Shown piece after piece: positions 1-15,874 of a DNA stretch of 15,874 bases (its first letter is position 1; every line of letters starts with the position of its first letter). Location of the stretch: the IMG/VR virus record IMGVR_UViG_2671180770_000015. One strand, given 5' to 3'. The translations under genes were made by a program, and so were the position numbers. A model generated the notes under the pieces. The model did not search any database, was not told where the DNA came from, and saw only the letters and a list, made by a program, of their open reading frames with translations. The DNA comes from a virus. Taxonomy: Duplodnaviria; Heunggongvirae; Uroviricota; Caudoviricetes.

Positions 1-100
1 ATTCTGAACTTTTGCTTTGCCACGGAATGGTCTGTGTTGTCGGGAGGATGCGTGATCTGATCCTTCAACTCAGCAAAAGTTCGATTTATTCAACAAAGCC
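1..100 (-). mobile_element. Partial IS903-group (IS5 family) insertion sequence, terminal 100 bp only; element body would continue beyond the left window edge
   Basis: Bases 1-100 are the exact reverse complement of 15775-15874. Bases 82-100 are the reverse complement of GGCTTTGTTGAATAAATCG, which I recall as the IS903 terminal inverted repeat. The outward-reading frame encodes ...SVAKQKFR, resembling the IS903 transposase N-terminal region. Recalled, not searched. Confidence 0.7.
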
Positions 101-600
101 TCAAACCTCAGCAAATAATCGAAGAACACATTAGCGGCTCAGCAGCAACCAGTGAGCGTCCTGGTTTTAACCGGTTGCTTGCTCGCCTGAAATGTGGTGA
201 TCAATTGATTGTGACAAAACTGGATCGCCTTGGTTGTAATGCAATGGATATCAGGAAAACAGTGGAACAACTGACCGAAACAGGTATCAGAGTGCATTGC
301 TTGGCATTGGGTGGCATTGACCTGACCAGTCCAACAGGAAAAATGATGATGCAAGTAATTTCAGCAGTCGCTGAATTTGAACGAGACCTTTTACTTGAAC
401 GCACTCATTCCGGGATAGTAAGAGCCCGCGGCGCAGGGAAACGCTTTGGTCGACCACCTGTGTTAAATGAAGAACAGAAACAGGTGGTATTCGAACGAAT
501 TAAGTCAGGTGTAAGTATAAGTGCCATTGCCCGGGAATTCAAAACCTCGCGGCAAACCATTTTAAGAGCCAAAGCAAAACTTCAGACACCTGACATATAA
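101..600 (+). pseudogene. Serine recombinase (PinQ/PinR-like resolvase/invertase family), 5'-truncated at the IS junction; catalytic-serine region missing
   Basis: Frame open from 61 to stop at 598-600, with no ATG/GTG (ORF track starts at TTG 175). Translation [13 protein letters not shown]...VTKLDRLG...[14 protein letters not shown]...GRPP plus C-terminal [18 protein letters not shown] matches the serine recombinase catalytic core and DNA-binding domain, but the N-terminal xRVSTxxQ motif is absent and replaced by IS-derived sequence. Confidence 0.85.
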
Positions 601-4300: not shown

Positions 4301-4561
4301 TCAGAACTTATAACCGACACCCACGATGAAACCGTCAGTGCGCCAGTCACCACTGCCGGAGCCTTCATAAGCAATATCAATGGCCACGGATTCGGTCGGG
4401 TTAAACTGCACGCCAGCTCCCCACGCCAGAGACGTGTTGCTGTGGCGACCGTCATCACTTCCGGTCAGCACGTCGTGCGTTTTCCCCTTGTTGTCAGTTA
4501 CGCGGAGATAATCCCCGGAGAAAGTCGACACACGGCTGTAAGCCATACCGATATGCTCCAC
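4301..4561 (-). pseudogene. lom: Lom outer-membrane protein (Ail/Lom family), 3' fragment only (~80 C-terminal residues, no signal peptide)
   Basis: Translation ...SLAWGAGVQFNPTESVAIDIAYEGSGSGDWRTDGFIVGVGYKF matches the lambda Lom C-terminal beta-barrel strands; the N-terminal ~120 residues are absent. Confidence 0.85.
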
Positions 4562-5390
4562 TTAACCGACCACCATCACGGGCCTGCTGTTGCATAAAGT
4601 CCGCTGCCGCTTTTTTCCCAAGGTCATAAACCACCTTCAGGGCAGCCGGACCTATCTGCCCGTTCGTGCCATCGTTATTGATCTCGATGTTGTACTGCGG
4701 GGCAAACATCGCCATACCTGAACCACCAATATCCGCCACAACCCCCAGCTTACCGTCAGCACCACGACGCAGTGGCAGAATGGCTTCAGGTCCAGCTTCC
4801 CCCATCACACCCGCGCCTTTTGCAAAAGCAAAAAACGTCGGACGGTTAACCACCGTGCCACTGTAACGACTCAAATCAGCAGACTGATAAATCCCCCCAT
4901 TGGCATTCAGGGAAAGGCTGCTGAGATCAAATCCCAGTACACTGCCAATCCCTTTTATCGATTTCATCATGGTTGCCTGCGCCAGGATTTTCGCCATATC
5001 TGACAGCACCGAAGAGGTGAAGGATTTGAAGTTGAGTTTGCCGGTAGTGACAAAAGTTGCCAGGCCATTTCCCATGTTGCTGAAGGCTGACGAGAACACC
5101 TGTTCTGCTGTTCCTGCCGTATTGTCTGCATCCACGGTAAAATCCTGAAATGCACGCAGGACTCCGTTTTTCCAGTTACCCTGCACAACTTCAAGCTGTT
5201 GCCAGTAACGGCGATTCTCATTCAGTTGTCGGTTCAGGCTCTCCGTCAGCGCCTGCTCGGCCTTTCTGTAGTCATCCGTGTTATATGTCCCTTTCTGCTC
5301 ACTATCCCGCCTCAACTGCTCCAGCTGTTGCTGGTATTTCTGGCGAAGACTCAGTTGTACCTGATATCGCTGCCGCTGCTGATCACCCAT
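4494..5390 (-). pseudogene. Tail tape measure protein (lambda gpH-like), C-terminal ~280-residue remnant, reading through into the lom remnant
   Basis: Translation ...INNDGTNGQIGPAALKVVYDLGKKAAADFMQQQARDGG... matches the lambda gpH C-terminus. The native stop is missing and the frame runs a further ~17 codons into lom-derived DNA. A stop lies 9 nt upstream of the first Met, so the N-terminal ~550 residues are absent. Confidence 0.85.
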
Positions 5391-5548
5391 ACCTGGTTAT
5401 CTCCCGCAACGGTATTCCCGGCAACCTGCCGGGTGGCAACCGAGACCGCTTTCTGTGCCACACGGTTTATCGCCCATGCGCTGGCCTGTGGCACCATATG
5501 GGTATCAAGGCTGTTCAGATTGCGGATGGCATTCTCAAGCCCCTTCAT
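5351..5548 (-). pseudogene. Tail completion protein (lambda gpZ-like), N-terminal ~45-residue stub running out of frame into the tape measure remnant
   Basis: MKGLENAIRNLNSLDTHMVPQASAWAINRVAQ resembles the lambda gpZ N-terminus (MAIKGLEQAVENL...AMAINRVAS); similarity is lost after about residue 44 and the ORF terminates inside the tape-measure frame. Confidence 0.6.
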
Positions 5549-6237: not shown

Positions 6238-8199
6238 TTACGCCGTACATTTCACCAGACCGCGGTGATCAACTGGCGCGACACCGGCGTCAATACGCAC
6301 TTTCGTTGTCACGCCATCCACACTGAAGCCCTCCATCTGATCAATATATGGCGTATCCACACCGTTGAGATAAGCCACTTCAATCGTATCGGAGCCTTTT
6401 GACGCAGCCAGGTAGAAGGTGGTCTGGCTGTTATCATCAAGACGAGGCTCTGCAATAACGGTCGCAAAATCTTTCACCGGGTTAATAATACCGGCGTTAA
6501 TGTCAGCCCCCTTGACACTTGAGGAGCGAATGACCTGGTTAGCAACAGACTCCATCGCCGTCGGTACCAGTACGAACGCAGGACGAATATTCAGATGACG
6601 CTCCCCCTCTTTCTGAACGCGCATCAACTGGCGGGCTTTATCCAGCGATGCCACGTCCATTGCAGCGCTCTCCAGTACGTTTGCATGTTTCGCTTTATCG
6701 AACAGACTTACATTATCTGTGGAGATTTTCGGGTTAGACGTCAGAATGGCATAAACCAGATCGGCAATAGTGGATTTCGCCGCACGGCCCAGTTTCATCG
6801 GGACATCGGTCAGCATATTCAGATCATCATTGATAATGGCCTGACGGGTGATACTGAACAGCTCGCCATAGGTCGCCAGTGCAATAGTGGCCTGTTTATC
6901 TCCGGTGGTGACGTATTTATATTCCGCCCCTTCACGCACCTGACGCAGAGCACTGAAGCCCCCCATACCCACACGATGGGCAATTTTAAAATCAGACAAC
7001 TGACCTTTCCGCGTCCACTGTTCATAGGTTTCAGGGGCATCTTCCCAGCCCTGCAGAATGGCTTTGTTCGCAACATCCAGCAGAATATTACCGAAGTCAG
7101 ACGTACTGTGTGTGAACGCCGCACCGACCATCTGCATCGGGTTATAACTGGAAACCCCAATACCCCGTTCAGTCAGTGACATACGGGCATATTCACGCAG
7201 GGTCATCCCGTTGTAGACATTATCACGTTCGGTTTTTTCAAATCCGGCACGCGCCATCAGCGCCTGGCGGATCCCGTCCCCCACAAAATTACCGTTACCG
7301 GCATAAATATGAGCCGGGGTATTTTTATTGGATGGCGTGGACTCGTGCCCCATCTCGTTCAACAGCTTTTCGCGGGCCTGCTCCAGCGAACATTCAGGAT
7401 CGGCAAGACACTGAGCCTGCAGCGACTGATAACGCCCGCCAAACATGGCAAACAGATCATTAATACCGTTTACACGCGCTTTTTGCTCTGCCAGGACCTG
7501 CGCACGGATGCTGTTTTCATCCACCACGGGTGCTGCTGCTGCCTGCACTGGCGTCCGGGAGGCTGCAGGTTCATCATCCTGTACGCGTGGAGCACTGTTG
7601 CGTGGCGGAGTAATCATGTTTCGAATGGATTCCGGCATCTTTTTAAATTCCTCTGTACGTTTTGACTGAATACATGCCATTGCCTTAACGGCTGGCGTTA
7701 CCTGATCAGCAAATCCATGTGCCAGACATTCGGCACCGGACATCCAGGTCTCATCCACCAGCATGGCAGCAATTTCATCGGTGGTTTTCCCGGTTTTCTG
7801 TGCATAAGCGGGTAACAGAACCGCCTCAACCTTATCGAGCAGGTCGGCATAGGTGCGCATGTCCTCCGCATCACCGCCCGTAAAGCCAAATGGTTTATGA
7901 ATCATCATGAAGGTGTTTTCCGGCATAATGACCGGGTTTCCCACCATCGCAATGACCGACGCCATTGACGCCGCCACACCGTCGACATAAACGGTAATGG
8001 ACGCACCATGTGTTTTCAGCGCATTAAAAATGGCGATGCCTTCAAAGACATCGCCACCCGGTGAATTAATATGGAGATTAATGTGGGTGATATCGCCCAG
8101 TGCATTCAGATCACTGATAAACTGCTTCGCTGTAACACCCCAGAAACCAATCTCGTCATAAATATAAATATCCGCGTCACTCTGGTGACCAGCCTGCAT
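6238..8199 (-). CDS. Prohead protease (ClpP/S14 family) fused to HK97-fold major capsid protein
   Basis: Single open frame 6238-8460. The N-terminal part has the ClpP-like motifs IYIYDEIGFWG and INSPGGDVFEGIAIFNAL; the C-terminal ~400 aa look like a major capsid protein. The likely start is the ATG at 8199 (MQAGHQSDADIYIY...); an alternative ATG at 8331 cannot be excluded. Confidence 0.8.
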   Translation of the reverse strand: MQAGHQSDADIYIYDEIGFWGVTAKQFISDLNALGDITHINLHINSPGGDVFEGIAIFNALKTHGASITVYVDGVAASMASVIAMVGNPVIMPENTFMMIHKPFGFTGGDAEDMRTYADLLDKVEAVLLPAYAQKTGKTTDEIAAMLVDETWMSGAECLAHGFADQVTPAVKAMACIQSKRTEEFKKMPESIRNMITPPRNSAPRVQDDEPAASRTPVQAAAAPVVDENSIRAQVLAEQKARVNGINDLFAMFGGRYQSLQAQCLADPECSLEQAREKLLNEMGHESTPSNKNTPAHIYAGNGNFVGDGIRQALMARAGFEKTERDNVYNGMTLREYARMSLTERGIGVSSYNPMQMVGAAFTHSTSDFGNILLDVANKAILQGWEDAPETYEQWTRKGQLSDFKIAHRVGMGGFSALRQVREGAEYKYVTTGDKQATIALATYGELFSITRQAIINDDLNMLTDVPMKLGRAAKSTIADLVYAILTSNPKISTDNVSLFDKAKHANVLESAAMDVASLDKARQLMRVQKEGERHLNIRPAFVLVPTAMESVANQVIRSSSVKGADINAGIINPVKDFATVIAEPRLDDNSQTTFYLAASKGSDTIEVAYLNGVDTPYIDQMEGFSVDGVTTKVRIDAGVAPVDHRGLVKCTA

Positions 8200-8335
8200 C
8201 CTGAACCAGGAATTATTCTTCGGACTGGTCGTCGGTGTGCTGCGGCTCCTGTCGTTTCGTTGCGGCACTGCTGCCTCCTTTATCACTGGCCGGATCGGTA
8301 TCAAATACCAGATCCAGCTTGCGGTTTTCATCAAT

Positions 8336-9154
8336 TTAGGCCTTGCGCCGACGTTTGACATCATCCGGATTACGACCACCAGCACGTACCCAGTCTGATT
8401 CTGTCGCCGCTCCACCACGAATCTGGATTTTCCAGGCCTCAGCCTCCTTAACAGGGTCAATCCACGGCATCACCGGTCCGGAATACACCGCGGTATACAG
8501 TGAAGAACGGTCAAGATCGCGGGGTAGCCTGATAACACCGGATGCCACAGCCTGTTTCAGCCAGGCACGATACATCGGGCGGGTGACGGCACCAATAAAC
8601 CAGTCCTGCAGGATCAGGTAGCCATCAGTAGACTCAACCAGTTCCTGACGCTGCGCGCTGTAAGTGCCGTTATAGTTGCGTGCCGTACTGGAAAAACTCA
8701 GACGACTGCCCGCCGCCACGGCACGCAACTGACCATTACGAAAAGTTTCAAGGTTAGGATTGGGACGATCCGACTTCACCATTCCGATTTCTTCGCCGGG
8801 TTTCAGATCGTCGTAAATAATGCCTGGCTGAATGGTAAGCTCGCGTTCATTCTCCTTGCTGCCATTACCATCCGGTTCATAGCTCTGCCCGTCGCCTTTC
8901 CGGATGTACATCCCCAGAGCAGCGGCGATCCTTGCTGCAGTCAGCTCAGAATCTTCATACTCTTTCAGAGCACTGAGGCGGATCAGCACACCGGACAACA
9001 AAGACGTCCCGCGCATCTGGTGCAGACGGCGAACAAATTTAAGATGCAGCATTCGCTCTGCATCCACTTCTTTGGTTTCCATCTGCCGCCCGGATACGGG
9101 ACGGCTTTTATACACCAGATATTTTTCGGGACACCCCCAGTCATCAACAAACAC
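8336..9154 (-). pseudogene. Portal protein (lambda gpB-like), C-terminal ~270 residues only
   Basis: Translation ...YSAQRQELVESTDGYLILQDWFIGAVTRPMYRAWLKQAVASGVIRLP... resembles the lambda B C-terminal half (...YSSARASANESWRYF...EEALLRGIIRPP); the N-terminal half is missing. Confidence 0.7.
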
Positions 9155-9186
9155 GCCCTGATTCAGCCTGTTGCTCTCATCACTGG

Positions 9187-10578
9187 TCAGCTGGCCGGAT
9201 CAATTCGCTGGCTCTCCCCGTCGCTGTCACCGCGCAATGACTGCGTGATGTTGTAACGATCAATAATCCAGCGTTCGCCACGGCTGCCATAGCCCGTTAC
9301 CTGAACCACAAAACGGCGATGACGTCCCGCCTGCACATCCACTGTCGCCACAAGGAAATTAACGCCATCCGGCACACTGCGGGAAGGAACTGGCTCTGCC
9401 CGCTGCTCAAGCAATTCACTTTTTCGTTGCTCCATGCTGGCGCGGGGAAGATAAGGTAATCCCCAGTCGGTATTGATAACCGTCTTGAGTGTCTCTTCAC
9501 TTCCGGTTGTCTCGTATTCCTGTTCTGCAGTAAGCAGTTTGTAAACGAGTTGCGAGAGTGTCTGATAAGCAGCTGCCGGACCCTCCATCCAGAATGACGC
9601 AATACGTGAACGCCGGGGATCACCATAACGACTGCCATCTGCATTGATGGATTCACCATCCCGTAACCAGACCCCACGTCCGTTCAGCTCGCGTTTTTGT
9701 TCAGGCAAAATCCGTCCTGAACAGGAAGGACACTGAATATAAGCCGCCTCACTTGCCAGCACAGGATCGGCAATATCACGGAAACCAGCAACCACATCGC
9801 CGCAGGGCTGAAAATACTCACCACAGTGTGGACAGGGCCAGTACCAGCGACGGCGATCGCCACGGTTATAGAGCGACAGGATCCCCGTGGTTGGTGGAGC
9901 CTCATGCGGTGAAGTCCGTCGCCATTTCACATCCTTCACATCCCTGCCGGGGGAACTCTCCACAAGCGTCATACCACTGGACATAAATGTGGTGGTACGT
10001 TTTGAGGCAAGAGAGAAGGCATCCCCCTCACCATCAATATCTTCCGGAAAACGGTCATAATCCGTCAGCGCCACGCATTTATAATCTGATGAAGACATGA
10101 TATTGACTGACGGCCAGCCGATTTTCAGGTAGTTGCCAGCAAGGAATGTTCTGTCATAAACGTTGTTGTCATTTTTGTTCGGACTCAGGCGACTGACCAC
10201 TTCCGGGCTGACGCGAAACGTTCTGGCGAGTCGTTTTTTGGAGTGTTCGCGGGCTTTTTCCTCCGTCATCTGAATGATCAGCATATCAGCAGGATCGCAA
10301 ATCACGTTGTAAATCACCCAGCCGTCAATCAGGCCGATAGTCTTGCCGGTTCGTGCCGGGCCAACAAATATCACTGCGTCGTATTCACGCGAGGCCAGGC
10401 AGTTCATCGGCTCAATAACATACGGTGCCACCAGCGGATCCCACGGGACTGAGTTCCCTGCCCCCATGGGCACCCGCATATACTGAGCAACGGCATCAGC
10501 AACCCGCATTCGTCTCGGTGCGCGAAGGATATAACCTGAATCGGTTCGTGCTGCCTTTGCGGTTTCCTGATTCAGCAT
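9187..10578 (-). pseudogene. Terminase large subunit (lambda gpA-like), truncated to 463 aa (lambda gpA is ~640 aa)
   Basis: WYWPCPHCGEYFQ matches the lambda gpA FHVACPHCGEEQY region, and the ORF ends at ...WIIDRYNIT..., equivalent to about gpA residue 480. The downstream sequence is portal-derived, not terminase. The start overlaps the terminase small subunit stop (ATGA). Confidence 0.8.
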
Positions 10579-11072
10579 TACTCCTCCTGCTGTAATTCCT
10601 CCTCATCATCCGCACCTGCTTCAGTCACCCGCAGGGCTATCTGATCGCGCAGATCATCAATAATGGACTGAACACGGCTCACAGCGGCAGGCTGCAGACC
10701 GCAGTCACGTTCCAGAATATCCGGTAATGTCTCCAGCACCTGCACGACCGCTTTTGCCCAGATGGCAAACTCCCGTCTGACATCACTGGCCGGAATGAGT
10801 TGCGCCGTTTCCTGTTCGAACTTAAGACGCTCACGTTCAGACTGATACCTGGCTTTGCGCTCATGCGCGTCCATTTCGCCTTCTGCAACCGGCGGTGGTA
10901 ATGCCAGAAATGCCGACACAATATCAACCACCCGATAAAGCTTGAGGTTGCTTTCATGCCCCCCTGCAACGGGTAGATTTTGCAGCCTTGCCGCAGCAGT
11001 CTGGCGATGTACACCTGACAGTGCCGCCAGTTGACTGATATTCAGCGTCAGATTTTTTAACTCTCGATCCAT
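10578..11072 (-). CDS. Terminase small subunit (Nu1-like DNA packaging protein with N-terminal HTH)
   Basis: 164-aa ORF with an N-terminal helix-turn-helix-like segment (LTLNISQLAALSGVHRQT), an acidic C-terminus, a GGAG ribosome-binding site and a position between cos and terminase large. Confidence 0.7.
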   Translation of the reverse strand: MDRELKNLTLNISQLAALSGVHRQTAAARLQNLPVAGGHESNLKLYRVVDIVSAFLALPPPVAEGEMDAHERKARYQSERERLKFEQETAQLIPASDVRREFAIWAKAVVQVLETLPDILERDCGLQPAAVSRVQSIIDDLRDQIALRVTEAGADDEEELQQEE

Positions 11073-11236
11073 ACCCGCTCCAGAATGTTTTAAACATGCA
11101 TCTTGCGAACGACTTTAGGCAAACGGTGTTAGTGATGAACAAAAAACAATCAAAATCGACACCACAAAAATAAAAATACTGTAATATCAATCTATTACAG
11201 TAGTGGTGATGACGGATGAAATTTCAAAAACTAGCC

Positions 11237-11300
11237 TTTTTCCGCGACGCTCCCGCCCCGTGGCAGGGGCCCCCACCGGGAGGACCCGACAGCCTGACAG
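11237..11300 (-). other. cos site (cosN/cosQ-like cohesive-end region)
   Basis: The minus-strand sequence GGGTCCTCCCGGTGGGGGCCCCTGCCACGGGGCGGGAGCGTCGCGG resembles lambda cosQ/cosN (GGGTCCTTTCCGGTGATCCGACAGGTTACGGGGCGGCGACCTCGCGG) and lies ~170 bp upstream of the terminase small start. Confidence 0.55.
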
Positions 11301-11438: not shown

Positions 11439-11606
11439 ATGCGAACCATAAATGCCTCATCTTCAGCAATGCAGCCGGCATCCGAACAGGACGATATTGT
11501 AAATTCACCTAATTACGAGGACATTGCAGTAGTTGAATTGCAGCTCTGTATTAGCCTGACAGTGACAGAATGCGACATTGACTCTGTCACAGGTGAAATA
11601 GTTTGA
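11439..11606 (+). CDS. Hypothetical small protein (55 aa), not in the ORF track
   Basis: ATG at 11439 preceded by GAGGGG at about 7 nt spacing; translation MRTINASSSAMQPASEQDDIVNSPNYEDIAVVELQLCISLTVTECDIDSVTGEIV; no family recognised. Confidence 0.3.
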   Translation: MRTINASSSAMQPASEQDDIVNSPNYEDIAVVELQLCISLTVTECDIDSVTGEIV

Positions 11607-11626
11607 ATGATTAGCAGTTATGGTGC

Positions 11627-11833
11627 TCAGTCAACCACCAGGGAATAATCCTTCGAATTCTTATCGTGCTTCACCAACGCTGCCTCAATTGCCCTGAATG
11701 CTTCCAGAGACACCTGATGTTCTATACATGCAATTACAACATCCGGGTAACTCATAGAAATGGTGCTATTAAGCATATTTTTTACACGAATCAGATCCAA
11801 CGAGAGTTCATCAGCAGATTGTTCTTTATTCAT
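11627..11833 (-). CDS. Small prophage protein, YbcW/YnfO-like (68 aa)
   Basis: 68-aa [60 protein letters not shown]...; recalled similarity to small proteins found beside Nu1 homologues in K-12 cryptic prophages. Confidence 0.5.
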
Positions 11834-12133
11834 TTTGTCGCTCCATGCGTTTGCTCGTCATCTAGCGGTTAAAATATTACTTCAAATCTTTCTGCATAAA
11901 AGAGGAAAAGTATGAAAGTTTGAGTACATCGACCTTACATACATCTGTCGGTTGCATATCCCTCCTGGATGCCAGCAAGGCTCAACTTTGTTACGCAATC
12001 AACACTATTCATTAAAAACAGGCTTAATATTTGACATAAATCATCAACAAAACACAAAGAGGTCAGACCAGATTGAAACAATAAACACGATAATGCAAAC
12101 TACGCGCCATCGTATCACATGGAAGGTTTGCCA

Positions 12134-12544
12134 ATGGCTCAGGCTGCCATTTTTAAAGAAATATTCGATCAAGTGCGTAAAGATTTAAACTGTGAATTAT
12201 TTTATTCTGAGCTAAAACGTCACAATGTCTCACTTTATATTTACTATTTAGCCACAGATAATATTCACATTGTGTTAGAAAACGACAACATAGTGTTAGT
12301 AAAAGGACTCAAAAAGGTTGTAAATGTTAAATTCTCCAGAAACAAACATCTTATAGAGACCTCCTATAATAAGTTGAAATCAAAAGAAATCACATTTCAA
12401 CAATACAGGGAAAATCTTGCTAAACCAGGAGTTTTCCGATGGGTTACAAATATCCAGGAACACCAAAGATATTACTATGCCTTTGATAACTCATTACTAT
12501 TTACTGAAAGCATCCAGAAAACTACACAGATCTTACTACGCTAA
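12134..12544 (+). CDS. ydfO: DUF1398-family prophage protein (YdfO/YbcV-like), 136 aa from the second Met
   Basis: The ORF track starts at 12119; the ATG at 12134 ([11 protein letters not shown]...) is preceded by GGAAGG. Assignment is from length and synteny with the Qin cspI-gnsB-ydfO cluster, not a sequence match I can verify. Confidence 0.45.
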
Positions 12545-12644
12545 ACCATAACGTCCGACTTCTCTCACTCCTGAGCCGGACTGCATTGGTTTAATAAAAA
12601 CCATCAACAATTGTGATTTAGATATTCGGAACCATTCAAATATA

Positions 12645-12685
12645 ACAAAACCCCGTAAAAACGAGGTTTATGGATAAATTTTATT
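12645..12685. terminator. Bidirectional hairpin between convergent ydfO-like and gnsB-like genes
   Basis: AACCCCG-taaaaa-CGAGGTT hairpin at 12649-12668 with T-rich flanks on both strands. Confidence 0.4.
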
Positions 12686-12868
12686 ATTGAATACATCAGA
12701 TTAAATTAATCTTGACATCATAGCTTTCAAGACCCGTCATTTTTTCCCGTGCGGTAAACTGAATACTGGTAACTTCTTTCCCGGTCTTTTTCTTAAGTTC
12801 AATAATTTTTTTGTTATATATTCAGAAATATCTGCTTCTGCTTTTGTTTTTAAGTCTTCAATATTCAT
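12686..12868 (-). pseudogene. gnsB: GnsA/GnsB-family small protein gene, disrupted by a frameshift in a homopolymer run
   Basis: Minus-strand start MNIEDLKTKAEADISEYITKK, then after a 7-base A-run (plus-strand T-run at 12806-12812) the GnsA/B-like sequence IIELKKKTGKEVTSIQFTAREKMTGLESYDVKINLI continues in another frame. The frame is restored by a single-base insertion in this run (8 A instead of 7). Confidence 0.6.
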
Positions 12869-13038
12869 CATTTCCTCTTTTAGTCTGTTATGACTTTCCA
12901 GTTAGACAGTAAGTCGATTATATGGTGCAAACGTGTAAAAGATAAGATGAAACATCGCAATAATCAACATACGATAGTCTAAATTTTACACAAACAGACA
13001 AAGAGAATTTCCCGAATTATCAATGCAATAGCATCAAA

Positions 13039-13230
13039 TCAACTCAAGAGCCTTATTGCTGCTTCCAGAATTTCTTCTGAAGTAACATGTCGATCCGCGG
13101 CTACATAAATGACTTTATGATCTCCGGTCAGAGATGGAAACCCTGCGGCCATTACAGTAAGGTGTGTTTTTTCGCCATTTGGATATTCACGCATGATGGT
13201 GTTAACTCCAGTCATCGCTGGCACTACCAC
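13039..13230 (-). CDS. Hypothetical protein (63-aa ORF; possibly a longer protein interrupted by a homopolymer frameshift)
   Basis: ORF MVVPAMTGVNTIMREYPNGEKTHLTVMAAGFPSLTGDHKVIYVAADRHVTSEEILEAAIRLLS from a GTG start. Upstream, an ATG at 13270 (MKKIIVFF) would join this frame if the 9-base A-run at 13246-13254 (on the + strand) were 8 bases. Confidence 0.4.
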   Translation of the reverse strand: MVVPAMTGVNTIMREYPNGEKTHLTVMAAGFPSLTGDHKVIYVAADRHVTSEEILEAAIRLLS

Positions 13231-13312
13231 TGCTGGTTCAGAGTTAAAAAAAAACTATGATTTTTTTCATGATGTTACCGTAGTATGTGAGTATCCATCG
13301 AATAGACACCAA

Positions 13313-13352
13313 GCAAAAAAGCTCCCGAAGGAGCCTTCATTTTCACTTTTTT
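13313..13352. terminator. Intrinsic terminator (bidirectional hairpin) downstream of the cold-shock gene
   Basis: GCTCC-cgaa-GGAGC at 13321-13334, flanked by AAAAAA (13315-13320) and T-rich sequence; gives a U-tract on the minus strand. Confidence 0.65.
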
Positions 13353-13541
13353 AAATCCAACGACAGACGGCTGGCATTTAAGTATTGTGAAATATTATCA
13401 AATGTAATCATCATTGATTTACAAAAGATACATTTTGCCCCGAAAGGATTCATGTCAGAAACATCAAAAGATGATGTTCTATACTGGGAACCATGACAAC
13501 ACGGGCATCTAAAGTGAATATGGTTTGTAATATTGTCTACC

Positions 13542-13754
13542 TCAAAGCGCCACTACATGAACAGCGGCAGGACCTTTAGGTCCGTTCTCAATACCAAATT
13601 CAACTTCCTGATTCTCAGTTAATGTTTTGAAATCGTTGCTCTGAATTGCTGAGAAATGGACAAACACATCTTTGCTGCCATCTTTCGGCGTGATGAAACC
13701 AAAACCTTTTTCAGGGTTAAACCATTTCACTAAACCAGTCATTTTGTTAGACAT
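13542..13754 (-). CDS. cspI: Cold-shock protein, CspA family (CspI-like)
   Basis: 70-aa [41 protein letters not shown]... with the RNP1/RNP2 cold-shock domain motifs; symbol assigned by synteny with the Qin lysis cassette. Confidence 0.9.
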
Positions 13755-13920
13755 AATTATTACCTTTTGAAGAAATTAGCCCTTGGGCAGAATGGTCCGA
13801 AAAAAAATATCAGAGAGAAAAACCAACAAGGAAATCTCAAGAGGTACAAATAATAAAATTATAACAATGACTGCTTCAGATAAATTTGTAACAAACCAGA
13901 ACACCATTAACGCATGATTA
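13755..13920 (-). promoter_or_regulatory. Probable long AT-rich 5' leader and promoter region of the cold-shock gene (extent uncertain)
   Basis: About 360 bp of AT-rich non-coding sequence lies between the Rz stop (14117) and the csp start (13754); CspA-family genes typically have long structured 5' UTRs. No promoter hexamers could be placed with confidence. Confidence 0.3.
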
Positions 13921-14116
13921 ACCACCCATAGCAAGGATTACTTTTGTAAAGAAAAACACAGCAATGAAAGAATAGCTTTATTTATTAATAAAACGTGTCA
14001 TTCTGATTAAGACCTTTTATCTTACCCTTAAGATTTCAGGAATTTTGGCTCATGGAAGAGTCCTTTTTATTTAAATTTTACATTCCGCGATGTAAATGTT
14101 CCGATTTAATATTACC

Positions 14117-15774: not shown

Positions 15775-15874
15775 GGCTTTGTTGAATAAATCGAACTTTT
15801 GCTGAGTTGAAGGATCAGATCACGCATCCTCCCGACAACACAGACCATTCCGTGGCAAAGCAAAAGTTCAGAAT
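15775..15874 (+). mobile_element. Partial IS903-group (IS5 family) insertion sequence, terminal 100 bp only; element body would continue beyond the right window edge
   Basis: Begins GGCTTTGTTGAATAAATCGAACTTTTGCTGAGTTGAAGGATCAGATCACGCATC..., which I recall as the IS903 end including its terminal inverted repeat; exact inverted copy of 1-100. Confidence 0.7.

What the first reader, a model, noticed from the sequence alone, without database searches (positions are those of the whole stretch)
8336..10578. Terminase large subunit truncated and joined to the 3' half of the portal gene
The terminase ORF stops at a point equivalent to about lambda gpA residue 480, and 30 bp downstream a new frame encodes only the C-terminal half of a portal protein. 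The terminase C-terminus, any gpW-like gene and the portal N-terminus are absent, so the locus cannot package DNA on its own. The upstream terminase small subunit and cos site look intact, so the element might still be packaged in trans by a helper phage.
Basis: partly seen in the sequence, partly recalled or inferred. Interest (0 to 1): 0.45.

Follow-up and report, generated by a model that had tools for sequence, protein, structure and literature searches.

The report
Deletion-truncated terminase in decayed Qin prophage
A 1,454-bp deletion in a decaying Qin-type E. coli prophage fused two-thirds of the large terminase gene to the last two-thirds of the portal gene, which is ordinary prophage decay, but at least nine other E. 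coli lineages have independent deletions starting within about 10 bases of the same point.

Summary
The genes lie on the minus strand. Compared with intact relatives (phage vB_EcoS-569R4, mEp460, and the Qin locus of E. coli 19SZHZ886Rt; 97-99% DNA identity), the window lacks 1,454 bp. The missing stretch covers terL codons 464-700, the whole 70-codon gpW-like gene and portal codons 1-177. The junction (window 9189) shares one base of microhomology and creates a TGA directly after terL codon 463.

The portal fragment has lost its ATG (now CTG) and carries a GAA>TAA nonsense codon at 8338-8336. cosN (11258-11247) and terS are intact. Two further deletions (about 4.5 and 6.2 kb) remove most tail genes. 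IS5-family ends bracket the contig.

An independent assembly of the same reads contains the same junction, and the joins share too few bases to be graph artefacts. The locus is therefore a multiply hit, packaging-dead Qin-type remnant. Packaging in trans is conceivable but untested and unlikely to be efficient.

Unexpectedly, the left breakpoint is recurrent. I found at least 10 distinct deletion junctions, with different right-hand partners, within about 10 nt of terL codons 463-466. One further junction keeps the opposite side. The site is the 3' end of the left arm of a 9-bp inverted repeat. Partner sequences often begin TA|CCGG.

The parts
11247..11258 (-). cosN cohesive-end site GGGCGGGAGCGT, with intact flanking cos region
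   Evidence: The joined ends of phage Tritos align across this point. The record ends ...CCTGCCACG and starts GGGCGGGAGCGT.... There is only one copy in the window.
10578..11072 (-). Small terminase subunit (DUF1441 type), intact
   Evidence: Pfam DUF1441, E=5.6e-39. 164/164 aa aligned at 99.4% identity to the intact Qin-locus copy.
9187..10578 (-). Truncated large terminase terL' (codons 1-463 of 700, plus a TGA created by the junction)
   Evidence: GpA_ATPase is complete; GpA_nuclease covers only 1-116 of 294. Alignment to the intact 700-aa TerL stops at residue 463. This corresponds to lambda gpA at about residue 445.
9188..9190 (-). Deletion junction: 1,454 bp missing, 1-nt microhomology (T)
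   Evidence: Window ...GGCCAGC T GACCAGTG...; intact left side ...GGCCAGCT|ATCCGG...; intact right side ...TTCCCAT|GACCAG.... The same junction is in the independent assembly L150.
9189..9197 (-). Surviving left arm (CGGCCAGCT) of a 9-bp inverted repeat; its right arm and the 44-nt spacer were deleted
   Evidence: In the intact phage, CGGCCAGCT-N44-AGCTGGCCG is the only inverted repeat of 8 bp or more within about 225 nt on either side. The predicted ssDNA hairpin is -20.9 kcal/mol, z=-3.45.
8216..9190 (-). Portal gene remnant (codons 178-502 of 502). Start codon lost. The called ORF is 9154-8336.
   Evidence: tblastn aligns portal residues 178-502 at 98.5% identity. Pfam Phage_portal_2 covers 158-354 of 354. 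ATG178 is now CTG. An in-frame TGA lies 4 codons upstream of the junction and there is no Shine-Dalgarno sequence.
8336..8338 (-). Nonsense mutation GAA>TAA in the portal remnant
   Evidence: Window GGCC TAA ATT versus GGCC GAA ATT in L001 and L002.
6238..8268 (-). ClpP-like prohead protease / major capsid fusion gene, apparently intact
   Evidence: Pfam CLP_protease plus Phage_capsid_4. Residues 1-675 align at 99.4% identity with one gap.
5390..5393 (-). Second deletion junction (about 4.5 kb): Z' codons 1-53 joined to tape-measure codons 740-1021
   Evidence: L002 position 17523 joins 22070. Protein map. 3-nt overlap; the right end lies at GGGT|ATGGG.
4543..4549 (-). Third deletion junction (about 6.2 kb): tape-measure end joined to lom' codons 118-199. 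Genes M, L, K, I and J are lost.
   Evidence: L002 position 10449 joins 16672. Protein map. 7-nt overlap.
1..100 (.). End of an IS5-family insertion sequence; it truncates pinQ at codon 31
   Evidence: It is the reverse complement of window 15775-15874. That 100-mer hits annotated IS5 family transposase elements at up to 47 places per genome. pinQ residues 31-196 lie at window 100-597.
15775..15874 (.). Inverted second copy of the same IS5-family end

Best explanation
The window is the late region of a Qin-type (mEp460-like) lambdoid prophage of E. coli (GCA_001277695.1, contig CYAV01000077.1) that is being eroded by illegitimate deletions. One 1,454-bp deletion with 1 nt of microhomology joined terL codon 463 to portal codon 178. 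It removed the rest of the TerL nuclease domain, the portal-binding C-terminus, the gpW-like adaptor gene and the portal N-terminus.

The junction itself supplies the TGA that ends terL'. The portal remnant has no start codon and a later nonsense codon, so it is most likely an untranslated pseudogene (inferred). Two more deletions removed most tail genes. The element cannot cut cos, translocate DNA into a head, or build a virion.

Shown: the deletion anatomy, its reality, and the intact cos and terS. Inferred: loss of function and lack of translation.

The left breakpoint is not random. It lies in a window of about 10 nt (AGC TAT CCG G) where at least 10 different deletions start in different E. 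coli lineages. The most likely cause is a mutational hot spot. The site is the stem-loop boundary of a 9-bp inverted repeat, and partners tend to share an imperfect TA(N)CCGG microhomology. This fits a stall or break at a hairpin followed by microhomology-guided rejoining. That mechanism is inferred and not tested.
For: Deletion defined base by base against phage vB_EcoS-569R4 and against an annotated intact Qin locus, 19SZHZ886Rt.

Domain truncations.

Twelve functional-phage records hold the full region at 95-99% identity and all are about 1.45 kb longer at this point.

An independent assembly carries the junction.

cosN matches phage termini.

Hot spot. Distinct junctions at the same site, each with a different right-hand partner:
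- window, to portal codon 178
- L003-L008, to the 3' part of stf
- L009-L012, to stf and ydfI
- L147
- L132
- L237
- L275, to portal codon about 262
- L276, to codon 64 of the gpW-like gene
- L277, to stf
- L143 keeps the right-hand side instead.

In 240 loci sampled only for carrying the left flank, 2 of about 19 downstream left breakpoints over 4 kb fall within +0 to +10 nt of the site, against about 0.05 expected.

Inverted repeat and hairpin.
Against: Both assemblies derive from one read set, so there is no orthogonal (long-read or PCR) confirmation for this strain.

No other genome, among 5,426 complete E. coli genomes or the one-genome-per-species set, carries this exact junction.

For the hot-spot mechanism: the hairpin window is only in the top 2.8% of the region, not the strongest. 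The general link between breakpoints and predicted structure is weak (p=0.03, uncorrected). The window's own junction uses only 1 nt of microhomology and its portal partner lacks the TA-CCGG motif. Part of the motif recurrence among partners is expected simply because they recombined with the same site.
Confidence: 0.9

Rival explanations
1. Assembly or sequencing artefact: the terL-portal join is a chimeric contig or a collapsed repeat, and the real genome has intact genes.
For: The window is an entire 15,874-bp contig of a short-read draft, ending in IS repeats. The exact junction was found in no other genome.
Against: The Logan assembly of ERR134545, built independently, contains the identical junction and the Z'|tape-measure junction. 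The joins share only 1, 3 and 7 nt, far too few for a k-mer graph misjoin. Equivalent truncations at the same site occur in long-read complete genomes.
Confidence: 0.03
2. Retained, selected function: TerS plus TerL(1-463) plus cos is kept because the truncated ATPase-only terminase (or the cos/TerS pair) benefits the host. For example, it could act as a dominant-negative decoy that interferes with packaging by incoming mEp460/Qin-type phages. On this view the recurrent truncation point reflects selection for that product.
For: The same 463-aa protein, or the same protein with a short added tail, recurs in many lineages with an unbroken ORF. The exact sequence is on 73 contigs and the 494-aa version on 121. 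The left side (lysis genes, cos, terS, terL') is retained in all but one junction type. The ATPase domain is complete.
Against: Breakpoints cluster at nucleotide level, with microhomology and an adjacent inverted repeat. That points to mutation bias rather than selection. Residue 463 lies inside the nuclease fold, after the first catalytic Asp motif and before the aligned second acidic motif. It is not a domain boundary, so the remnant is probably poorly folded. The tails added after residue 463/464 differ freely (0, 13 and 30 residues). No expression or phenotype data exist.
Confidence: 0.07
3. Helper-dependent mobile element: the remnant keeps cos and terS so that it can be packaged in trans by a related helper phage, like a cos-type satellite.
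For: cosN and its flanks are 97-98% identical to functional phages, and terS is intact. Relatives with this terminase type are common in E. coli: 1,961 of 5,426 complete genomes match this region.
Against: The window has a single cos, so there is no second cos to terminate packaging. It has no integrase, excision, replication or capsid-size-redirection genes. The structure derives from a full phage by random-looking deletions, and IS copies bracket it. By established lambda biology (from memory: doc particles from unexcised prophages), in-situ packaging without a terminal cos gives defective particles.
Confidence: 0.1

Closest known systems
Qin (Kim) cryptic prophage locus of E. coli
   Same: The cargo and late genes, and their order, are the same: pinQ, tfaQ, stf, then DUF1398, gnsB, ynfN, ynfR, ynfQ, cspI, rzpQ, rrrQ, ydfR and the holin. 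This is as annotated in the intact-length Qin locus of strain 19SZHZ886Rt between ydfJ and rspA. Relatives with the same truncated TerL sit next to ydfK, ydfJ and ydfI.
   Different: This copy keeps part of the head module (terS, terL', portal', protease-capsid, decoration and head-completion genes) and has its own three deletions. From memory, K-12 Qin has lost all head and tail genes between its Nu1-like nohA remnant and stfQ, whereas the small terminase here is the DUF1441 type. Chromosomal flanks cannot be seen in the window because it ends in IS copies.
Functional phages mEp460, vB_EcoS-569R4, phi458, Ayreon
   Same: 95-99% DNA identity over cos, terS, terL, portal and protease-capsid, with identical gene order.
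   Different: Those phages carry the full 700-aa TerL, the 70-aa gpW-like adaptor and the 502-aa portal. The window lacks 1,454 bp of that segment.
Lambda Nu1-A-W-B packaging and portal module
   Same: Same order (small terminase, gpA-type large terminase, small adaptor, lambda-family portal) and a lambda-like cosN. Pfam GpA_ATPase, GpA_nuclease and Phage_portal_2 all match.
   Different: Only 25% (TerL) and 22% (portal) identity. The small terminase is a DUF1441 protein, not Nu1. Protease and major capsid are fused.
Palindrome- and nick-site-associated deletion hot spots (for example hairpin-stimulated deletions in lacI, or fixed endpoints at M13/pC194 origin nick sites; recalled from memory, not checked)
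   Same: One deletion endpoint is fixed to a few nucleotides at the edge of an inverted repeat. The other end varies and shows short or imperfect homology.
   Different: The stem here is short (9 bp, 44-nt spacer). Deletions reach 0.9 to more than 25 kb rather than excising the palindrome. No nicking protein or origin is known at this site. The mechanism is untested.

Membership tests
Lambda gpA-type large terminase (PF05876 + PF20454) | Complete N-terminal packaging ATPase domain | tested here: met
   GpA_ATPase positions 2-247 of 247, E=6.8e-72.
Lambda gpA-type large terminase (PF05876 + PF20454) | Complete endonuclease domain and the C-terminal region needed for cos cutting and prohead docking | tested here: not met
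   GpA_nuclease covers only 1-116 of 294. Residues 464-700 are absent. The region aligned to lambda gpA from about residue 445 to 641 is missing.
Lambda-family portal protein (PF05136) | Full-length portal with its own start codon | tested here: not met
   Only profile positions 158-354 of 354 are present. Codons 1-177 are deleted, ATG178 is now CTG, there is a TAA at codon 462, and no Shine-Dalgarno sequence.
Qin-type lambdoid prophage | Synteny and near-identity with annotated Qin genes (pinQ, tfaQ, gnsB, ynfN, cspI, rzpQ, rrrQ, ydfR) | tested here: met
   Four collinear blocks at 97.8-99.2% identity to the annotated locus. Per-gene tblastn.
Qin-type lambdoid prophage | Chromosomal position between ydfJ and rspAB | not testable with these tools
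   The contig ends in IS5-family repeats on both sides. Relatives with the same TerL' do sit next to ydfK, ydfJ and ydfI.
cos-packaged phage satellite (PICI-like) | cos site recognised by a helper's terminase | tested here: inconclusive
   cosN and its flanks are conserved. Recognition and cutting were not tested.
cos-packaged phage satellite (PICI-like) | Own integrase, regulation and replication genes, plus a compact dedicated gene set | tested here: not met
   None are present in the window. All genes are collinear leftovers of a full phage late region.
Recurrent (hot-spot) illegitimate deletion site | Several independent junctions with different partners at the same few nucleotides, more than chance would give | tested here: met
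   10 left-retaining junctions and 1 right-retaining junction within about 10 nt. 2 were observed against about 0.05 expected in a sample chosen only by the left flank.
Recurrent (hot-spot) illegitimate deletion site | A structural or sequence cause (hairpin, microhomology, or a specific nuclease) | tested here: inconclusive
   9-bp inverted repeat with the breakpoints at its arm-loop boundary. Hairpin z=-3.45 but only in the top 2.8% regionally. Partners begin TA|CCGG or TA|TCCGG in 4 of 9 left-retaining junctions other than the window's. No enzyme is identified.

The most novel reading that the evidence does not exclude
The terL codon 463-466 site (AGCTATCCGG, at the edge of the CGGCCAGCT/AGCTGGCCG inverted repeat) is a built-in fragile site of mEp460/Qin-type phages. 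It repeatedly and independently starts deletions that kill packaging while sparing lysis genes, cos and terS, which amounts to a sequence-determined route to prophage domestication. It may be one of a set of TA-centred (GGTA/CTA) recurrent breakpoints in this phage family that reflect a specific nicking or rejoining activity.
Probability: 0.5. Interest if true: 0.55.

Novelty: new member of a known kind. Interest (0 to 1): 0.3.

Why it matters
The finding itself is routine. It documents one more way a lambdoid prophage loses its packaging machinery, and it shows that the 463-aa 'terminase' annotated in many E. coli genomes is a deletion product rather than a short family.

The recurrence is what could matter. 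If deletions in this widespread prophage family start again and again at the same few bases, prophage decay is partly deterministic. The site would then be a natural, easily tested model for RecA-independent, structure- or microhomology-guided deletion in the chromosome's terminus region. It would also give a practical marker for tracing independent inactivation events of Qin-type prophages across E. coli lineages.

Tried and rejected
- An exact junction scan of one genome per species found nothing. None of 5,426 complete E. coli genomes has this junction. It is private to this strain as far as the data go.
- The 325-aa portal protein P0018 looked like reuse of the right breakpoint. It comes from full-length prophages with frameshifted portals, where Met178 is simply the next ATG. 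Rejected.
- IS-mediated adjacent deletion as the cause of the fixed left end was rejected. No IS, IS scar or target duplication lies at any of the junctions, and L009's extra DNA is tail-fibre and ydfI sequence.
- Pin/Gin-type invertase pseudo-sites: the site does not resemble the AAACC..GGTTT core as I recall it. Not pursued.
- A T^CCGGA-type restriction cut with fill-in would fit L132 and L143. However, those two are better explained by 7-nt (TATCCGG) and 4-nt (TATC) microhomology, and it would not explain why only this TCCGGA site is used.
- Cas3-type unidirectional degradation should not give endpoints this precise. Not supported.
- A Chi site next to the break: none seen by eye.
- L164 seemed to share the right partner of L132/L143, but its junction is a separate AACCC microhomology.
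- The L261 'junction' is a Nextera adaptor.
- A full-text literature search for a described terminase deletion hot spot in cryptic prophages found nothing specific.
- A terL-portal fusion by frameshifting is unlikely. The portal frame has a TGA 4 codons upstream of the junction.
Full report
**What is in the window.** All relevant genes are on the minus strand. Running downstream from cos, the gene order is as follows.
- A DUF1441-type small terminase lies at 11072-10578.
- A 463-aa gpA-type large terminase fragment lies at 10578-9187.
- A portal fragment is called as a 272-aa ORF at 9154-8336.
- A ClpP-protease/major-capsid fusion lies at 8268-6238.
- A DUF2190 decoration-type gene and a Gifsy-2-type head-completion gene follow.
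- Next come fragments of Z, the tape-measure gene and lom, then a full tail-fibre gene, its assembly gene, and a truncated pin invertase.

Upstream of cos lie the Qin cargo and lysis genes: DUF1398, gnsB, ynfN, ynfR, ynfQ, cspI, rzpQ, rrrQ, ydfR and the holin. The window is the whole contig CYAV01000077.1 of E. coli assembly GCA_001277695.1, from run ERR134545.

**Checking the observation.** Megablast against phage records found 12 phages (vB_EcoS-569R4, phi458, mEp460 and relatives) that cover window 8000-11300 at 95-99% identity. In each, the match is two pieces spanning about 4,750 bp for a 3,301-bp query.

Base-level comparison with vB_EcoS-569R4 (L001) and with an annotated full-length Qin locus (L002) gives a single gap of 1,454 bp.
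- The window reads ...GATCCGGCCAGC T GACCAGTGATG....
- The intact left side reads ...GGCCAGCT|ATCCGGAAG....
- The intact right side reads ...TTCCCAT|GACCAGTG....

The deletion removes TerL residues 464-700, the entire 70-aa gpW-like gene and portal residues 1-177. Only one base (T) is shared at the join. The join itself creates the TGA that ends terL'.

Pfam agrees. The ATPase domain is complete, the nuclease profile is covered only at positions 1-116 of 294, and the portal profile only at 158-354 of 354.

The portal homology extends from codon 178 to the natural stop (window 9190-8216). The called ORF is shorter for two reasons. ATG178 became CTG at the junction, and a GAA>TAA mutation lies at 8338-8336. 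The portal frame has a TGA four codons upstream of the junction and no ATG or Shine-Dalgarno sequence, so the fragment is probably not translated.

TerL residue 463 aligns to lambda gpA at about residue 445. That is after the first catalytic-Asp motif (ATVDVQ aligned to AGIDSQ) and before the aligned second acidic motif.

**Is it real?** The contig comes from a short-read draft, so I checked for an artefact. An independent Logan assembly of the same run (L150) contains the identical junction and also the Z'|tape-measure junction. The three joins in the window share only 1, 3 and 7 nt, which a k-mer graph cannot misjoin. Equivalent truncations occur in long-read complete genomes. I rate an artefact at about 3%. 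Confirmation by PCR or long reads is still missing.

**Wider state of the element.** Relative to the full-length locus, the window has two more deletions.
- L002 position 17523 joins 22070. This is about 4.5 kb, running from Z codon 54 to tape-measure codon 739.
- L002 position 10449 joins 16672. This is about 6.2 kb, covering genes M to J and the 5' part of lom.

gnsB and ynfN carry stops. Both contig ends (1-100 and 15775-15874) are inverted copies of an IS5-family end, and pinQ begins at codon 31.

By contrast, terS is 99.4% identical to the intact copy. The cos region is also conserved. The joined termini of phage Tritos align across window 11258, where the record ends ...CCTGCCACG and starts GGGCGGGAGCGT..., a lambda-like cosN.

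The locus therefore cannot package DNA and could not build tails either. The idea that it could be packaged in trans rests only on an intact cos and terS. The window holds a single cos and no integrase, excision or replication genes. At most, in-situ cos cutting by a related terminase is conceivable. I could not test this.

**An unexpected recurrence.** The exact 463-aa protein is encoded on 73 other contigs. In those contigs the junction is different...GGCCAGCTA|GCCGCGCTGAC..., joined to the 3' part of a tail-fibre gene (L003-L008). Following this lead produced a series of distinct junctions, all within AGC TAT CCG G.

| Source | Junction | Right-hand partner |
|---|---|---|
| window | T\|GACCAG | portal codon 178 |
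| L003 type | TA\|GCCGCG | 3' part of stf; 3 complete genomes |
| L009 type (494-aa protein, 121 contigs) | TA\|CCGGAGTC | stf fragment, then ydfI; 2 complete genomes |
| L147 | TATC\|AGCATC | N-terminal region of stf |
| L132 | TATCCGG\|CAGGAA | (not listed) |
| L237 | TA\|CCTGAG | in-frame fusion to another tail-fibre allele |
| L275 (O27:H7 B4103-1) | TA\|GCGGCG | codon about 262 of a diverged portal; a second, independent terL'-'portal fusion |
| L276 (01G17CRGN001) | TA\|CCGGCTGG | codon 64 of the gpW-like gene, leaving a full portal |
| L277 (ETEC4073) | TA\|CCGGGGCT | stf |

One further junction (L143) keeps the right-hand side instead. There a cro/YdaS-like gene is joined at ...GGATATC|CGGAAGAC.

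The right-hand partners differ by kilobases and by allele. The window type cannot derive from the others, or the others from it. These are therefore independent events.

**Is the clustering more than chance?**
- In 240 viral and metagenomic loci chosen only because they contain the 27-mer to the left of the site, about 19 credible left breakpoints lie in the next 4 kb. Two of them are within +0 to +10 nt of the site, against about 0.05 expected.
- Among the non-partial truncated TerL proteins listed from the 90%-identity cluster, four C-terminal types end at residue 463 or 464 and one ends at residue 443.

Both lines make chance unlikely.

**Possible cause.**
- In the intact sequence the site is the 3' end of the left arm of CGGCCAGCT-N44-AGCTGGCCG. 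This is the only inverted repeat of 8 bp or more within about 225 nt on either side.
- The 101-nt segment folds as ssDNA at -20.9 kcal/mol, with z=-3.45 and 0 of 200 shuffles as stable. Regionally it is only in the top 2.8%.
- Partners of the site frequently begin TA|CCGG or TA|TCCGG. That is an imperfect match to TATCCGG.

This suggests a stall or break at the hairpin followed by microhomology-guided rejoining. It is an inference. Nothing here identifies an enzyme.

**Other recurrent breakpoints in the family.** Positions below are relative to the terL site.
- Position +133 (GATA|) was used by two distinct events.
- The end of the gpW-like gene (GGGTA|CCGG) was used by three events.
- Position +1114 (GTTA|CC) was used by two events.
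- Position +9798/9800 (GGGTA|TGGG) was used by the window's own second deletion and by L221/L134.
- Position +18943/5 (GGGTA|CC) was used by two events.

All of these lie at a TA step. I cannot explain this.

**Comparison with known systems.** The element is a member of the Qin-type/mEp460-type lambdoid group by near-identity and synteny. Its packaging module works like lambda Nu1-A-W-B but is only 22-25% identical. It is not a functional terminase or portal, because the defining C-terminal and N-terminal parts respectively are absent. It is not a dedicated cos satellite. The hot spot resembles classical palindrome- or nick-associated deletion hot spots (recalled from memory), but with a short stem and very long deletions. 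A full-text literature search found no description of it.

**Verdict.** The finding is real and correctly read, but biologically ordinary. It is one private deletion in a multiply damaged prophage. The added value is that its left end falls in a recurrent deletion start site shared by many E. coli lineages. That is new as far as I can tell and cheaply testable.

Noticed in passing
window 9189-9197 (minus strand); intact sequence at L001 5104-5165: The deletion's left end lies in a recurrent breakpoint cluster. At least 10 distinct deletion junctions with different right-hand partners fall within about 10 nt of terL codons 463-466 (window, L003, L009, L147, L132, L237, L275, L276, L277 types), plus L143, which keeps the other side. 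The site is the arm-loop boundary of the 9-bp inverted repeat CGGCCAGCT-N44-AGCTGGCCG.
   Followed up: partly
window 5390-5393; L221/L134, L181, L107, L117, L218, L053, L062, L092, L119: Other breakpoints in this phage family are also reused by different events, and all sit at a TA step, often GGGTA|. The right end of the window's second deletion (GGGT|ATGGG) coincides within 2 nt with the right end of an unrelated deletion in L221/L134. The end of the gpW-like gene (GGGTA|CCGG) is used three times, +1114 (GTTA|CC) twice, and +18943/5 (GGGTA|CC) twice. No mechanism was identified.
   Followed up: partly
window 4543-4549 and 5390-5393: Two further illegitimate deletions (about 6.2 kb and about 4.5 kb) leave only Z codons 1-53, tape-measure codons 740-1021 and lom codons 118-199. 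The tail genes U, V, G, T, M, L, K, I and J are gone.
   Followed up: yes
window 1-100 and 15775-15874: Both contig ends are inverted copies of the terminal 100 nt of a multicopy IS5-family insertion sequence (IS903 group, by memory). The 15.7-kb prophage remnant is therefore bracketed by two IS copies, and pinQ is cut at codon 31.
   Followed up: partly
window 8336-8338: A GAA>TAA nonsense mutation lies in the portal remnant, 41 codons before its natural stop. It is independent of the deletion.
   Followed up: yes
window 12699-12868 and 13042-13266: The gnsB and ynfN homologues contain stop codons or frame breaks relative to the reference Qin locus. Neighbouring cspI, ynfQ, ynfR and rzpQ are 100% identical at protein level.
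   Followed up: no
window 11259-11300 (minus strand, just upstream of cosN): The short direct repeat GGCTGTCA is present in two copies here and three in phage Tritos (an 8-bp indel). The segment between cosN and terS diverges from Tritos but matches mEp460-type phages, which suggests a different cosB/terS specificity group.
   Followed up: no
L275 (NZ_CP024245.1) and L276 (NZ_CM148329.1): Other complete genomes carry independent terL' truncations at the same site. One is joined to portal codon about 262 of a diverged allele. The other is joined to the last codons of the gpW-like gene, with a full portal downstream. The terL'-'portal architecture has therefore arisen more than once.
   Followed up: partly
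window 11500-14000: An AT-rich block (GC 33-41% against about 53% in the head genes) holds the Qin cargo genes DUF1398, gnsB, ynfN and cspI. This fits cargo ('moron') DNA between the lysis cassette and cos.
   Followed up: no
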